From the human T2T-CHM13v2.0 reference genome, Homo sapiens, in NCBI GenBank assembly GCA_009914755.4, contig CP086569.2, forward strand, positions 18,528,001 to 18,592,000: a stretch of DNA of 64,000 bases. Reading direction: 5' to 3'. The notes beneath the pieces were generated by a model. That model was not told the origin of the DNA. It saw only the letters and a list, made by a program, of their open reading frames with translations, and made no database searches. The position numbers and the translations under genes were made by a program. Shown one piece after another: positions 30,727-63,073 of the stretch (position 1 is the first letter of the stretch; the number at the start of each line of letters is the position of its first letter).

Positions 30727-31767
30727 CAGACTAATATCGTGGGATATTCGGTTTTTCACTACAGGCGGCAATGGGCTCCGAAATGTTCCCTCATAGATTC
30801 TACAATAAGAGTGTTTCCAACCTGCTGAATCAACAGAAAAGTTTAACTCTGTGATATGAATCCATGCATCACAAAGCCGTTTCCCAGATACTTTGTTTAT
30901 ATTTTTTATCATGGGAAATTCTGTTTTTCCCTATAGGCCTTGATGGGCTCTGGAATGTCCCATTGTAGATACTACCAGAAGAATTTTTCAAACGTACTGA
31001 ATCAAAGGAAAGGTTTACCTCTGTGAGATGAATCCACACATTGTTAAGTGCTTTCACAGACAGCTTGTTTCTTGTTTTTATTGCGGGATACTCAGTTTTT
31101 CCCTATAGGCTCTAATGGGCTCCAAAATGTCCCTTCATGGATTCTACAAAGAAATAGTGTTTCCAACCTGCTGAATCAAAAGGAAGGCTTACCTCTGTGA
31201 GATGAATGGACACTTCATAAAACAATTTCGCAGATACCTTGTTTCTAGTTACTGTCATGGAATATTCGATTTTTCATTATAAGCCTCAATGGTTACCAAA
31301 ATGTCCCCTTCATAGATTCTAAAAAAGATGTGTTTCCAACCTGCTGAATCAAAAGAAAAGTTCAACTCTGTGAAATAAATCCATACATCCCAAAGATGCT
31401 TCACAGATAGCTTGTATCTGTTTTTTATCTCCAGATATTCAGTTTTTTCACAATAGGCCTTAATGGGCTCTGAAATGTCCCATTATATATTCTACAAAAA
31501 GGGTGTTTCCAGTGTGCTAAATCTAAAGAAAGGTTTATCTCTGTTAAATGAATCCACATATCACAATGAGGCTTCACAGGTAGATTGTTTCTCATTTTTA
31601 TTGAGGGATATTCATTTTTTTTCAATAGACTTCATGGGCTCTAAAATGTCCTTTCTTAGGCTCTACTAAAAGAGGTTTCCAACCTGCTGAATCAAAAGAA
31701 AGGTCCATCTCTGTGAGATGAATGCACACATCACACAAAGGTTTCACAGATAGCTTGTTTCTAGATT

Positions 31768-32049
31768 CTTTTTTGAGACGTAGTTTTGCTCTTATTGACT
31801 AGGTTAAAGTGTAATGGTGCGATCTCTGCTCACTGAAACCTTCACCTACAGGAGGTTTAAGCAATTCTCCTGCCTCAGCCTCCCGAATAGCTGGGATTAG
31901 AAATATGCACCACAATGCCCAGAGCAATTTGTATCTTTAGCAGAGACAAGCTTTCTTCATGTTGGTCAGGCTGGTCTCAAATTCCAGACCTCAGGTGAGT
32001 TACCCTCATAAAGTGCTGGGATTACAGGTTTTAGCCACAGTACCTGCCC
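31768..32049 (-). mobile_element. Diverged Alu inside alpha satellite
   Basis: ttttttgagacgtagttttgctcttattgactaggttaaagtgtaatggtgcgatctctgctcactgaaaccttcacc ... gctgggattacaggttttagccacagtacctgccc. Confidence 0.8.
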
Positions 32050-32480
32050 TTGCTTCTAGTTTTTATTGTGAGATATTCAGTTTTTCATAATAGGTCTCAG
32101 TGGGTTTCAATATGTCCCTTCAGAGATTCTACTTAAAGGGTTTTTCCAACCTGTGGAATCAAGAGAGAAGTTTAACTCTGTGATATCAATCCAAATATGA
32201 TATAGGTATTTCACAGATAGCTTGATCTAGTTTTCATAGCAGGATATTCAGTTTTTCACTGTAGGTCTTAATTGGCTCTGAGATGTCCCTTTGCAGATTC
32301 TACAAAAAGAGTGTTTTGAACTGGCTGAATCAAAAGAAAGGCTTAACTGTGTGACATGAATCATACATGTCACACATCATAAAGCGGTTTCACAGATATC
32401 TGCTTGCTAGTCTTTATTGTGGGATATTCAATTTTTCACTGTAGGCTTCAATGGGCTCCAAAATGTCTCTTAGTAGATGC

Positions 32481-59300: not shown

Positions 59301-62300
59301 ATAGCATCTTTCTAGATGTTACTAGGGGATATTCCTTTTCTTTTTTTTTTTCTCATTGTCCTCAATGGGCTCCTGAATGTCACTTCACAAATCCTCCAAA
59401 AGAAGTGTTTCCAAACTGCTGAAACTAAAGAAAGGGTTAACTCTGTGAGATGAATCCATAAATCACATAGCTGTTTCATGGACATTTTCTTTCTAGTTTT
59501 CACCAAGGAACATTCCACTCCCATGGGCTTCACCGAGATCCCAAATATTTTTTGGCAGATTCTCCAAAAAGGGAGTTTCCAACCTGCTGAATCAAAAGCA
59601 ATGTTTAACTCTGTGAGATGAATACAGGCATCACAAAGCAGTTTCACAGATAGCTTCTTTCTAGTTTTTTTTTTTTTTTCTGGGGATATTCAGTTTTTTT
59701 GCATGGGCCACAACTGGCTGTCAAAAGTCCCCTGGCAGATTCTCCAAAAAGAGTTGTTCCAACTGGCTGAATAAAAAGAAAAGTTTACCTCTATGAGATG
59801 AATCCAGACAACACAAAGTGTTTCACAGACAGCTAGCTTCTTTCTATTTTTTATCTGGGGATATTCCATATTTTCCCATGGGCCACAGTGGGCTCCCAAA
59901 TGTCCTTTCACTGATTCTTCTAAAGAGTGTTTTCAACCTACTGAATATAAAGAAATATTTAACTCTGTGAGATGAATCCACACATCACAAAGCAGTATCA
60001 CAGGTAGCTTTTTTCTAGTTTTATTTGGGGATAATTTTTTTCATGAGCATCAATGGACTCCCAATTATGCCTTAGCAGATTCTACAAAAACAGTGTTTCC
60101 ATCCAGCAGAAATAAAAAAAGGGTTAAACTCCGTGAGATGAACCCACACATCACAAAGCAGTTTTATGGACAGCATTTTTCTAGTTTTTATCAAGAGATA
60201 TTCTGTTTTTCCCCATGGGCCTCAATGGGCTCCCAAATATCACCTTGAAGATTCTTCCTAAAGAGTTTTTTCAACTGCTGAATTAAAAGAAACGTTTAAC
60301 TCTGTGAGATGAATGCATATGACACTGAGCAGTTTCACACATAGTTTCTATATAGTTTTTTCCTGGGGACATTCTGTTTTTTCCCCATAGCCCACAATGA
60401 GGTCCAAAATGTCCCTTCACCTATTCTCCAAAAAGAGTGTTTCAACCTGTTGTAACAAAAGGAAGGTTTAAGTTTGTCAGATGAATCCACACATCACAAA
60501 GCAGTTTCACAGAGAGCTTCTTTCTAATTTTACTTGGGGATATTCGTTTTTTTCTGATATGCCTCAATGGGCTCACAAATATGCCCTGGCAGATTCTCCA
60601 AAAAGAGTATTTCCAAGATACTGAATCAAAAGAAAGATTTCACTTTGTGAGGTGAATCCATGCATCACAAAGCAGTTTCACGGATATATTCTAGTTTTTA
60701 CCCTGAGATATTTAGTTTTTTCCCCATGGGCCTCAATGGTTTCCAAAATTTATCTTTGTAAATTTTCCAAGAGGAGTGTTTCCAACCTGCTGAATCAAAA
60801 GAAAGGTTTAACTCTGTGAGATGAATCCATACATCTCAAAGGCATTTCACAGATAGCATCTTTCTAGTTTTTGTCTGGAAATATTCAGTTTCTTTGATAG
60901 AGCATCAATAGGTTCCAAAATGTCCCTTCTCAGATTCTACATGCTGAATAAAAGGAAAGGTTTATTCATTTGAGATGAATCCGCAATCACAAAGCAGTTT
61001 TACAGTAACCTTCTTCCTAGTTTTTGTCTGTGGATATTCTGTTTTTCCTCATGGGCCTCACTTGGCTCCCAAATGTCCCTTTGCATATTCATCAAAAAGA
61101 GTGTTTCTAACCTGCTGAATAGGAAAAAAACGTTCAAACCTTTGAGATGAATCCACAAATTGCAAAGAAGTTTTACACATAGCCTGTTTCTAGTTTTAAT
61201 CTAAGAATATTTGAAATTTTCCATGGGCCTCAATGGGTTCTTGAATGTCCCTTTGGAGATTCTCCAAAAAAAGTGTCTTGAACCTGCTGAATCAAAAGAA
61301 AGATTTAACTCTGTGAGATAAATCCATACATCACAAACCAGTTTTACAGATAGCTTATTTGTGGGTTTTACAGGAAATATTCAGTTTTTTTGCATGGGTC
61401 CCACTGGGCTTCCAAATGTCCCTTTGCAGTTTCTCCAAAAAGGGTGTTTCCAATCTACTGAATCAAAAGAAAGGGTTAACACTGTGAGATGAATCTACAC
61501 ATCACAAAGCAGTTTCACAGAGAGCATCTTTCTAGTTTTTACTGTGAAATATTTAATTTTTCCCCATAGGCCTCAATGGGCTCCCAAATTTCCCTTCACA
61601 GATTCTCCAAAAAAAGTGTTTCCAAAGTGCTGTATCAAAAGAGAAATATAACACTATGAGATGAATCCACAGCTCACAAAGCAGTTTCACATATAGCTTC
61701 TTTCTAGTATTTTTCTGGGGATATTGAATTTTCCCCCCTGGGCCTTGATGAACTGCCAAATAAATGTCTCTTCAGGCATTCTTAAAGAAGAGTCTTTCCC
61801 ACCTGGTAAATCAAAAAAAAAAAAAAAACATTGAACTCTGTGAGATAAATCGGGACTTCCCAAAGCTGTTTCACAGATAGCTACTTTCTAGGTTTTACAT
61901 GCAGTTATTCAGTTTTTCCTCATGGGCCTCAATGGGCTACCAAATGTCCAGTTGCAGATTCACCAAAAAGAGTGTTTCTAACCTGCTGCATCAAAACAAG
62001 GTTCAAAGCTTTTAGATGAATCCACACATTGCAAAGCATTTTTCCGGATAGCTTGTTTCTAGTTTTGATCTAAATGTATTCCGTTTTTTTTCCCATGGGC
62101 CTCAATGGGATCCAAAATGTCCCTTTGCAGATTCTCCAAAAAAAAGTGTTTCCAACCTGATGAATCAAAAGTAATGTTTAACTCTGTGAGTTTAATCCTC
62201 ACTTCAAAAAGCAATTTCACAGATTTTTTTCTGTTTTTTACACAAGTTTACTGGGTTTTTCCCTGTGGGCCTCAATGGGTTCCCAACAGTCCCTTCACAG

Positions 62301-63073
62301 ATTCTCCAAAAAGAGTTTTTCCAACCTGCTGAATCAAAAGAAAGGTTTAATTCTCTGAGATGAATCCATACATTGCAAAGCAGTTTCACAGATAGCTTCT
62401 TTCTAGTTTTTACTTGAGATTTTTGTTTTTTTCCCAGTGGGCCTCAATGAACTCTCAAATGTCCCTTCCAGATTTTCCAAAGAGTATTGAAGCCTGCTGA
62501 ATCAAAAGAAAAATATAACTCTGTGAGATGAATCCACCCAGCACAAAGCAGTTTCACAGATAGCTTCTTATTTGTACATGGGGATATTTCTTTTTTCCCA
62601 TGGGCCACAATGGGCTACCAAATGTTTGTTGGTAGATTGTCCAAAAAGAGTGTTTGCAACCTGCTGAAACAAAAGAAATATTCAACACTGTGAGATGAAC
62701 CCACACATCACAAAGCAGTTTAACCGATATATTGTTTCTAGTTTTTGCCTGGAGATATTCAGTTTTTCTCCATGTGCCTCAAGGGGCATCAAAATGTCCT
62801 TTGCAGATGCTCAAAAAAGATTGTTTCCAACTTGCTGTATTAAAGGAAAGTTTTATCTCTGTAAGATGAATCCACACATCAGAAATCAGTTTCACATATA
62901 CTTTTTTTTCTGATTTTTACCTGGGAATATTTGGTTTTCCCCCAAAGGCCTCAATGGGGTCCCAAATATAAATTCACAGATTCTCCAAAAGGAGTGTTTC
63001 CAACCTACTGAATCAAAACAAAGATTTAGCTCTGTGAGATTAATCGATACATCACAAATCAGTTGGCCAATCC
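50337..63073 (-). repeat. Alpha satellite family B, the main block of ~12.7 kb (~74 monomers). It contains one Alu (51546-51847) and several monomer-internal homopolymer expansions.
   Basis: Repeating ..ctggggatattcagtttttccccataggcctcaatgggctcccaaatgtccctttgcagattctccaaaaagagtgtttccaacctgctgaatcaaaagaaaggtttaactctgtgagatgaatccacacatcacaaagcagtttcacagatagcttctttctagtttttac.. Confidence 0.95.
51546..51847 (-). mobile_element. Alu inside alpha satellite
   Basis: cttttctttttttttttttttttggaggtggagtcttgctctgtcacccaggctggagtgcagtggtgcaatttcccactcactgcaagctccacc ... ctgggattagaggcatgagccaccccacctggc. Confidence 0.9.

What the first reader, a model, noticed from the sequence alone, without database searches (positions are those of the whole stretch)
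30727..63073. Every large retroelement at a satellite border is cut internally, giving a patchwork array rather than nested insertions
Four satellite-to-retroelement junctions sit at non-terminal positions of the retroelement, and none has a poly-A or a target-site duplication. The first is 30727, in L1 ORF1. The second is 42862, in L1 ORF2 near aa 780, although the same L1 has a perfect 5' end at 47270. The third is 48369, in the HERV gag capsid region, while its 5' LTR end at 50336 is intact. The fourth is 63073, in the HERV pol RT C-terminus. Retrotransposition normally truncates L1 at the 5' end and inserts proviruses with both LTRs. The pattern here instead implies repeated deletion or unequal exchange that removed one side of each element together with satellite, or a stitching together of segments.
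Basis: partly seen in the sequence, partly recalled or inferred. Interest (0 to 1): 0.6.

Follow-up and report, generated by a model that had tools for sequence, protein, structure and literature searches.

The report
Deletion-scarred retroelements in dead alpha satellite
This is an old, inactive stretch of human centromere-flanking alpha satellite in which L1, HERV-K-like and Alu insertions each later lost one side to non-homologous deletions, which is the ordinary decay expected of such regions rather than a new kind of structure.

Summary
All four satellite/retroelement junctions exist within 13 bp of the stated coordinates and lie inside the elements. They are:
- L1 ORF1 (about aa 249) at 30734/30735.
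- L1 ORF2 after W806 at 42864/42865.
- HERV-K-like Gag aa 475 at about 48373.
- HERV-K-like RT connection domain at about 63065.

None has a poly-A tail or a target-site duplication. The two stated intact ends are also real: the L1 5' end at 47269/47270 and the LTR start at 50338/50339. I found a fifth scar at 42119/42120, a 5'-cut Alu, and an internal deletion in the second HERV.

The window is human. Independent short-read contigs reproduce four of the junctions I checked exactly, so those are not assembly artefacts. The junctions at 42864, 42119 and 63065 could not be cross-checked.

All 146-148 monomers have one orientation. The same monomer class flanks the L1 and the first HERV on both sides. 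Four full Alus keep their target-site duplications. The monomer phase jumps across each cut element.

Best reading: normal insertions into a single dead monomeric array, followed by several independent one-sided non-homologous deletions. The "stitched patchwork" reading is not supported, except that two monomer classes abut at the Alu scar. This fits published accounts of decaying, shrinking centromere flanks. Interest is low.

The parts
30052..30734 (+). L1 A. An internal ORF1 fragment that runs from about aa 35-40 (estimated by eye against ORF1p recalled from memory) to about aa 249. Its left end abuts the poly-A of an Alu (29751-30051). Its right end is cut and joined to alpha satellite (junction J1). 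This is the border between arm sequence and satellite.
   Evidence: Sequence. ORF1p alignment. It is 76.7% identical to L1 B 46145-45482. J1 is reproduced in contigs L001, L002 and L004.
30735..41964 (-). Monomeric alpha satellite of the older class ('A-type', 72-75% identity between monomers). It carries three full-length Alus at about 31765-32049, 32482-32779 and 39831-40141, each with a degenerate 13-16 bp target-site duplication. The first nine monomers (30735-32481) score only weakly as A-type. A phase jump without any element lies at 37302-37330.
41965..42119 (-). Half Alu, consisting of a poly-T tract plus Alu positions 167-282. Its 3' end is intact against A-type satellite. Its 5' end is cut and joined to B-type satellite (junction J7, 42119/42120). 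There is no target-site duplication, and the phase jumps by about 79 bp. The monomer class switches exactly here.
42120..42864 (-). Alpha satellite block d, of the younger class ('B-type'). It ends at HMM position about 59 against the cut L1 (junction J2).
   Evidence: 5 of 5 monomers classed B
42865..47269 (-). L1 B. It runs from a full-length 5' end at 47269 through the 5'UTR and ORF1 to ORF2 aa 806, a total of 4405 bp. The last ~1.6 kb are missing (rest of ORF2, 3'UTR and poly-A).
   Evidence: The 5' junction is reproduced in L005 and L006.
47270..48373 (-). Alpha satellite block e, about 6.4 B-type monomers between the L1 and the first HERV. It starts at HMM position 165 and ends at position 90.
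   Evidence: 7 of 7 monomers classed B. It lies wholly inside contig L006.
48374..50338 (-). HERV A, a class II (HERV-K-like, not HML-2) provirus remnant. The 5' LTR is about 577 bp and starts TGTGGG at 50338. A Lys-type PBS-like sequence lies at about 49760. gag runs from about 49609 to Gag aa 475. Everything 3' of that point is missing.
   Evidence: Gag_p10 and Gag_p24_C Pfam marks appear on contig genes. Both junctions are reproduced in L005-L008 and L010.
50339..63064 (-). Alpha satellite blocks f-h, 12.7 kb of B-type monomers at 75-79% identity. It contains one full Alu at 51542-51847 with a target-site duplication. It starts at HMM position 74, which is 15 bp short of continuing block e.
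63065..64000 (+). HERV B, a HERV-K-like provirus remnant in the opposite orientation to HERV A. It starts in the RT connection domain (junction J6). It has an internal deletion of about 0.93 kb at about 63483, running from the RNase H N-terminus to the integrase C-terminus. env SU sequence lies at 63826-63999. The element runs off the end of the window.

Best explanation
The right half of the window is the distal edge of a dead, purely monomeric alpha-satellite domain flanking a human centromere. Arm sequence is on the left and the centromere is on the right.

Retroelements entered the array in the normal way. These were Alus, an L1PA-type L1 and two HERV-K-like proviruses in opposite orientation. 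Later, several independent double-strand-break repair events of the non-homologous or microhomology type each deleted a stretch. Each deleted stretch began inside an element and ended in neighbouring satellite.

Each such event leaves four traces:
- an element with one intact end and one internal end;
- no poly-A or target-site duplication at the internal end;
- a blunt or few-bp joint;
- a jump in monomer phase.

At least five such scars abut satellite here (J1, J2, J4, J6 and the half-Alu J7). Smaller ones also exist inside the satellite (about 37.3 kb) and inside HERV B (about 63483).

Shown directly: the anatomy, the phases, the orientation, the monomer classes, the Alu target-site duplications, and the reality of four junctions in independent assemblies.

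Inferred: that the elements were once complete in place, and that the losses were separate deletions.
For: 1. All monomers lie on one strand from 30735 to 63064 (146 hits, 148).
2. Cross-validated monomer typing puts blocks d (5/5), e (7/7) and f (9/9) in the same class as 52-63 kb (65/65). So the L1 and HERV A are embedded in one array type.
3. Four full-length Alus in the same array retain target-site duplications and phase overlap. Normal insertion signatures therefore survive here and are specifically absent at the cut ends.
4. Phase gaps are about 59-62 bp across the L1 and 15 bp across HERV A, both mod 171.
5. Both elements with an intact end have a canonical end. L1 B has a full-length 5' end, and its ORF2 aa 1-805 map colinearly. 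HERV A has an LTR starting TG, followed by a PBS-like sequence and gag.
6. Deletion is demonstrably active in the region without involving satellite borders. HERV B has an internal ~930 bp deletion. The satellite has an element-free ~60-90 bp phase jump at 37302-37330.
7. J1, J3, J4 and J5 are identical in independent human short-read contigs.
8. [quoted passage not shown] They also report layers with 71-79% within-type identity that get younger toward the centromere (PMC2729386). This matches A-type (72-75%) lying distal to B-type (75-79%).
Against: - No pre-deletion allele or orthologue was available, so the former completeness of each element is inferred.
- The sizes of the satellite losses are unknown. 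Only the value mod 171 is known.
- The 15 bp phase gap at HERV A is small enough to be compatible with an insertion accompanied by a small target loss. The chance of a gap that small under random deletion is about 18%.
- Three of three elements inside the B-type array are cut on the same (arm-ward) side. Independent random deletions give this only about 25% of the time.
- J2, J6 and J7 were not confirmed outside this assembly.
- Microhomology calls rest partly on L1 and HERV consensus sequence recalled from memory.
Confidence: 0.7

Rival explanations
1. True patchwork. The blocks were brought together by one complex rearrangement (shattering and re-ligation) or by duplicative transposition of segments from other pericentromeres. 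Under this reading, the junctions between satellite and element interiors are segment ends.
For: - Every cut joint lacks insertion hallmarks and looks like end joining.
- Two monomer classes abut sharply at the half Alu.
- The arm side carries a mir-1324 copy. From my own knowledge this lies in a dispersed segmental-duplication family, so J1 in particular could be the edge of a transposed duplicon.
Against: - All monomers share one orientation. If five or six pieces were re-ligated at random, this would happen about 3% of the time.
- Blocks d, e and f are the same class.
- No block is a high-identity copy of another.
- Alu target-site duplications and phase are preserved within blocks.
Confidence: 0.1
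2. The fragments were inserted already incomplete. One route is endonuclease-independent capture of L1 cDNA or other DNA at a break in the satellite. For J4, another route is that the 1.1 kb block e is a 5' transduction carried by L1 B into the gag gene of HERV A.
For: - L1 B lacks a poly-A tail and a target-site duplication. From my own knowledge these are hallmarks reported for endonuclease-independent L1 insertion.
- The phase gaps are small mod 171.
- The transduction idea would explain J4 without a separate deletion.
Against: - From my own knowledge, reverse transcription starts at the 3' end of the RNA. A copy with a perfect 5' end that lacks 1.6 kb of 3' sequence is therefore the opposite of what abortive or break-primed copying usually yields.
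- Retroviral integration cannot deliver one LTR plus half of gag.
- Block e has the same class and orientation as its neighbours.
- From my own knowledge, 5' transductions of 1 kb are rare.
- Other scars in the region need deletions anyway.
Confidence: 0.08
3. HERV A and HERV B are two parts of one provirus that was split by an inversion with loss of the middle.
For: - The two pieces are non-overlapping. A runs from the 5' LTR to Gag aa 475. B runs from the RT connection domain onward.
- They are in opposite orientation.
- Both are HERV-K-like and about equally distant from HML-2.
- The LTR/satellite junction J5 would be the preserved original one.

Against: - An inversion that carried the 5' piece would also have flipped the 12.7 kb of satellite between the pieces. 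That satellite has the same orientation as everything else.
- An extra loss of about 2.9 kb would also be needed.
Confidence: 0.03
4. Assembly collapse or mis-join at the junctions.
For: Satellite is hard to assemble. J2, J6 and J7 were not found in any external contig.
Against: - J1, J3, J4 and J5 are reproduced base for base in several independent samples.
- The satellite here is 70-79% identical between monomers and has no near-identical repeats. It is effectively unique sequence and not prone to collapse.
Confidence: 0.03

Closest known systems
Layered, decaying monomeric alpha satellite flanking human centromeres (Shepelev et al. 2009, PMC2729386; Altemose et al., 10.1101/2021.07.12.452052)
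   Same: - Purely monomeric 171 bp repeats with no higher-order period.
- Within-class identity of 72-79%.
- The younger class lies nearer the centromere.
- L1, Alu and ERV insertions are present.
- The papers state that such flanks shrink and accumulate insertions.
   Different: The passages I searched in those papers with term searches (neither was read in full) do not describe the junction-level scars. They do not mention cut elements, phase jumps, or a class boundary sitting on a half Alu. This window also shows no inversions, although those papers report them as common in divergent alpha satellite.
K222, a pericentromeric HERV-K provirus lacking its 5' LTR and gag (Zahn et al. 2015, PMC4425911)
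   Same: K222 is a provirus cut internally, bordered by pericentromeric repeat on both sides, with no recognisable target-site duplication. The authors attribute this to an early deletion. This is the same situation as HERV B and mirrors HERV A.
   Different: K222 is HML-2, is flanked by pCER:D22Z8 rather than alpha satellite, and was later copied to nine chromosomes. The elements here are about 50% identical to HML-2 proteins in their aligned pol and env segments, and there is no sign of copying within the window.
Endonuclease-independent L1 insertion at DNA breaks (from my own knowledge: Morrish et al. 2002; Sen et al. 2007)
   Same: A 3'-truncated L1 without a poly-A tail or target-site duplication.
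   Different: L1 B keeps a full-length 5' end and 4.4 kb of colinear sequence. The neighbouring HERV and Alu show the same kind of cut, which that pathway cannot explain.

Membership tests
Monomeric (ancient) alpha satellite | Tandem monomers of about 171 bp that match the alpha consensus | tested here: met
   146-148 monomers match the consensus or an HMM built from it, spaced 165-172 bp apart.
Monomeric (ancient) alpha satellite | No higher-order repeat, with identity between monomers of about 70-80% regardless of distance | tested here: met
   Identity is flat at 0.72-0.77 for lags 1-8 in the four blocks with 26 or more monomers; shorter blocks are noisier. No self-matches reach 85% identity.
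Canonical L1 insertion by target-primed reverse transcription | 3' end with a poly-A tail | tested here: not met
   L1 A ends in ORF1 and L1 B ends at ORF2 aa 806. Each is joined directly to satellite.
Canonical L1 insertion by target-primed reverse transcription | Flanking target-site duplication and continuous target sequence | tested here: not met
   The satellite phase is broken by about 59-62 bp across L1 B and there is no repeat at the flanks.
Canonical L1 insertion by target-primed reverse transcription | Full-length or 5'-truncated 5' end | tested here: met
   L1 B starts at the consensus 5' end (the consensus is recalled from memory). L1 A starts inside ORF1.
Intact provirus or solo LTR | Two LTRs, or one LTR with a 5-6 bp target-site duplication | tested here: not met
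   There is one LTR only and no second copy in the window. HERV A stops in gag and HERV B starts in pol.
HERV-K-like (class II, betaretrovirus-like) ERV | Gag, RT-RNaseH and Env homologous to HERV-K | tested here: met
   E = 1e-44 to HERV-K capsid and E = 2e-42 to HERV-K RT. Env matches over 63 aa at 49% identity. The identity levels exclude HML-2 itself. The HML group was not determined.
Nested insertion (host element split into two colinear halves around an insert) | Both halves present in the same orientation, abutting the insert, with a target-site duplication of the insert | tested here: not met
   The missing halves are not in the window. The two L1s overlap in L1 coordinates and differ by 23%. 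The two HERV pieces are in opposite orientation.
Non-homologous deletion scar | Blunt or few-bp joint, loss of sequence on both sides, and the same flanking context on both sides | tested here: met
   The joints were read directly. The same monomer class and strand occur on both sides.
Non-homologous deletion scar | A pre-deletion state exists in an outgroup or another haplotype | not testable with these tools
   No primate or human genome collection is available. Only short human-derived contigs were found.
Endonuclease-independent L1 insertion | 3'-truncated, no poly-A, no target-site duplication, inserted at a break, often with a small target loss | tested here: inconclusive
   The first three features are met for L1 B. 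The target loss is known only mod 171. The full-length 5' end and the similar cuts in the HERV and the Alu argue against it.

The most novel reading that the evidence does not exclude
The cuts may not be random decay. They could be footprints of a polar process in which satellite is copied over an inserted element from one side. An example would be break-induced replication or template switching during array maintenance, acting as a mechanism that purges elements. The hint is that all three elements inside the younger (B-type) array keep their centromere-side end and are eroded from the arm side.
Probability: 0.05. Interest if true: 0.6.

Novelty: already known. Interest (0 to 1): 0.2.

Why it matters
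The scars are a base-level record of how a dead centromere layer shrinks. Each cut element gives a minimum deleted length: at least 1.6 kb, at least 4 kb and at least 6 kb of element sequence, plus satellite. Each element's age also gives an upper age for its deletion. Counted genome-wide in complete assemblies, such scars could turn the qualitative statement that flanks "shrink" into a rate. They could also test whether the loss has a direction. As a single locus, this is an ordinary example of known pericentromeric decay.

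Tried and rejected
1. **Inversion splitting one provirus.** Rejected because the 12.7 kb of satellite between the two HERV pieces is not flipped.

2. **L1 B on a satellite layer boundary.** Rejected. Blocks on both sides of L1 B are B-type. The class switch lies at the half Alu, 745 bp to the left.

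3. **Dimer or higher-order register as a ruler for deleted monomer number.** No periodicity exists, so this was unusable. TRF's 343 bp rows reflect only marginally better matching.

4. **Recent intra-window duplication carrying junctions.** None at 85% identity or more.

5. **Missing halves in the window.** The only other L1 ORF2 C-terminal match is a 44%-identity old L1 at 12045-12287. There is no second LTR.

6. **External confirmation of J2, J6 and J7.** None of these attempts found anything:
   - Two metagenome DNA scans.
   - Two viral-contig scans.
   - One protein search with concatenated junction peptides, which returned only unrelated alpha-satellite ORFs at 32-71% identity.

7. **Contigs L003, L009 and the left 0.7 kb of L005.** These looked at first like diverged orthologues or paralogues at 90-98% identity. 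Mismatch profiles show they are chimeric short-read assemblies. They are identical to the window in the unique part and then switch to another repeat copy.

8. **Pfam scan of raw frames.** Failed because of stop codons. I used PDB sequence searches and local tblastn instead.

9. **Literature searches on truncated L1 in monomeric satellite and on 3p12.3.** These gave nothing specific.

Full report
**What the window is**

Bases 1-30734 are Alu-rich, non-satellite sequence. From 30735 to about 63065 the window is alpha satellite. A consensus search found 146 monomers, and an HMM rebuilt from them found 148. Every one lies on the same strand, and none lies left of 30735.

The satellite is purely monomeric. 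Identity between monomers is 0.72-0.77 at every lag from 1 to 8 in the longer blocks. No two stretches of the window are 85% identical or more.

The window is human. Contigs from human-contaminated metagenome and Logan assemblies match it at 99.7-100%.

**Checking the four junctions**

All four exist, within 13 bp of the stated positions.

- **J1 (30734/30735).** A + strand L1 ORF1 reading ...REKSRVTHKGKPIRL stops at the end of the RRM domain and is followed at once by satellite.
- **J2 (42864/42865).** The - strand L1 stops after W806 of ORF2p.
- **J4 (about 48371-48374).** A - strand HERV-K-like gag stops at the equivalent of Gag residue 475 of 666, just past the major homology region of the capsid.
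- **J6 (about 63060-63066).** A + strand HERV-K-like pol begins at residue 399 of the crystallised HERV-K RT-RNaseH, about 75 residues before RNase H.

The two intact ends are also as described. The L1 5' end at 47269/47270 matches the start of the primate L1 5'UTR (the consensus is recalled from memory). The LTR starts TGTGGG at 50338 and runs about 577 bp to a Lys-type PBS-like sequence that matches 13 of 18 bases. gag follows from about 49609.

No cut end has an A-rich tract or a flanking direct repeat.

**Are they assembly artefacts?**

For four junctions, no.
- L001 (2621 bp) and L002 are 100% identical to the window across J1.
- L006 (4755 bp) is 100% identical to 46810-51564. It crosses the L1 5' end, the whole 1.1 kb satellite block, the cut gag end and the LTR end.
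- L005, L007, L008 and L010, from other samples, agree.

Three contigs that looked diverged (L003, L009 and the left end of L005) are chimeric short-read assemblies. They are identical to the window in the unique part and then switch to another repeat copy.

J2, J6 and the Alu junction described below could not be found in any collection. The satellite here has no near-identical repeats, so collapse is unlikely, but these three remain unconfirmed.

**What else is there**

*Monomer classes.* The HMM map accounts for every base between 30735 and 63065. The region holds monomers, four full Alus, one half Alu, the L1 and HERV A.

Monomer typing separates two classes:
- an older class at about 32.8-41.97 kb (72-75% identity);
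- a younger class at 42.12-63.06 kb (75-79% identity).

With leave-one-out scoring, 50 of 52 and 65 of 65 training monomers fall on the expected side. The held-out blocks 42118-42872 (5/5), 47272-48373 (7/7) and 50339-51923 (9/9) are all the younger class.

*A fifth scar.* The class switch is sharp and falls exactly on 41965-42119. This is a - strand Alu that keeps its poly-A end against the older class. It is cut at Alu position 167 against the younger class, has no target-site duplication, and shows a phase jump of about 79 bp.

*Intact Alus.* By contrast, the four full-length Alus all have degenerate 10-16 bp target-site duplications, and the monomer phase overlaps across them as expected.

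*HERV B.* It also carries an internal deletion of about 0.93 kb at about 63483. The sequence passes from the RNase H N-terminus straight to the integrase C-terminus, and then into env.

*An element-free break.* The satellite has one phase break without any element at 37302-37330.

**Working out the mechanism**

*Phase evidence.* Across the L1, the satellite stops at HMM position about 59 and resumes at position 165. So about 59-62 bp, plus an unknown number of whole monomers, are missing. Across HERV A it stops at position 90 and resumes at position 74, so 15 bp plus whole monomers are missing.

*Nature of the joints.* Read against the satellite consensus and the element sequences, the joints are blunt or share at most about 3 bp, possibly 5-8 bp at J6. 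This rests partly on consensus sequence from memory. Homologous unequal exchange between monomers cannot join satellite to the inside of an element, so these are non-homologous joints.

*Evidence for one array.* The uniform orientation, the shared monomer class on both sides of the L1 and of HERV A, the absence of duplicated blocks, and the preserved Alu signatures all point the same way. One array received normal insertions. It was then trimmed by separate deletions that each ran from inside an element into neighbouring satellite.

*Minimum element losses* (element lengths partly from my own knowledge):
- about 1.6 kb for L1 B;
- at least 6 kb for HERV A;
- at least 4 kb for HERV B;
- about 4 kb for L1 A;
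- 166 bp for the Alu.

*Literature.* This agrees with published accounts of layered dead alpha satellite. Within-layer identity is 71-79% and rises toward the centromere (PMC2729386). [quoted passage not shown] A direct precedent for a provirus cut against pericentromeric repeat without a target-site duplication is K222 (PMC4425911).

**Rivals**

- **Random re-stitching of five or six pieces.** This would give a uniform orientation only about 3% of the time, and it does not predict the shared monomer class. It stays most plausible for J1. There the arm side carries a mir-1324 copy and may be a transposed duplicon, which is my own inference.
- **Insertion of ready-made fragments.** This fits poorly. 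Reverse transcription starts at the 3' end, yet L1 B has a perfect 5' end and lacks its 3' end. Integrase cannot deliver one LTR with half a gag.
- **5' transduction.** The idea that block e was carried by L1 B into HERV A saves one event. It needs a rare 1.1 kb transduction that happens to match its neighbours in class and strand.
- **Inversion splitting one provirus.** This would explain the opposite orientations and non-overlap of HERV A and HERV B. It would also have flipped the 12.7 kb of satellite between them, which is not flipped.

**Verdict**

The "unequal exchange" and "stitching" parts are not supported. The structure is a typical decaying pericentromeric flank, so novelty is low.

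One weak oddity remains. All three elements inside the younger array are eroded from the arm side. This has about a 25% chance under random deletion, so I record it only as a long-shot lead.

Noticed in passing
window 1624-1713 (-): A full-length match to the mir-1324 precursor family (78 bits against a gathering score of 70). From my own knowledge, MIR1324 sits in a dispersed FAM86/ZNF717-type segmental duplication. If so, the arm side of the satellite border may be a pericentromeric duplicon.
   Followed up: no
window 41965-42119: A half Alu (positions 167-282 plus poly-T) marks a sharp switch between two alpha-satellite monomer classes. It has no target-site duplication and a phase jump of about 79 bp. 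It is a fifth cut junction that is not in the finding.
   Followed up: yes
window 63483-63485: HERV B has an internal deletion of about 0.93 kb. It joins the RNase H N-terminus (...NIVSDS) directly to the integrase C-terminus (LTWERGYACVSPG...).
   Followed up: partly
window 37302-37406: A satellite phase break with no transposable element. A monomer covers only HMM positions 1-76 and is preceded by 29 unaligned bases. TRF sees a local 105 bp period here. It looks like a small deletion scar within the satellite.
   Followed up: partly
window 29751-30055: The 5' end of the L1 ORF1 fragment sits directly against the poly-A tail of a + strand Alu. A possible A-rich target-site duplication (AAAAAATATA / AAAAAATCAC) suggests the Alu landed at the old L1 5' junction.
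   Followed up: partly
window 12045-12287 (-), within 10-16 kb: A 44%-identity match to L1 ORF2 residues about 822-901, in an AT-skewed, GC-poor stretch interrupted by several Alus. This is an old, unrelated L1 on the arm side, not the missing half of L1 B.
   Followed up: partly
window 25996-26346: A degenerate (CT)n / (CTCTCT)n tract of about 350 bp. It produces a spurious 179 aa Ser/Leu-rich ORF.
   Followed up: no
L003 1-1100; L009 1-2318; L005 5120-5798: These public metagenome contigs carry human DNA and are chimeric. They are identical to the window in the unique part and then switch to another alpha-satellite, HERV or L1 copy. This could mimic a diverged orthologue.
   Followed up: yes
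window 30735-32481: The nine monomers nearest the arm score only weakly as the older class. They are slightly more alike (0.756) than the next block (0.72). They may be a third monomer type, with no discontinuity at its inner edge.
   Followed up: partly
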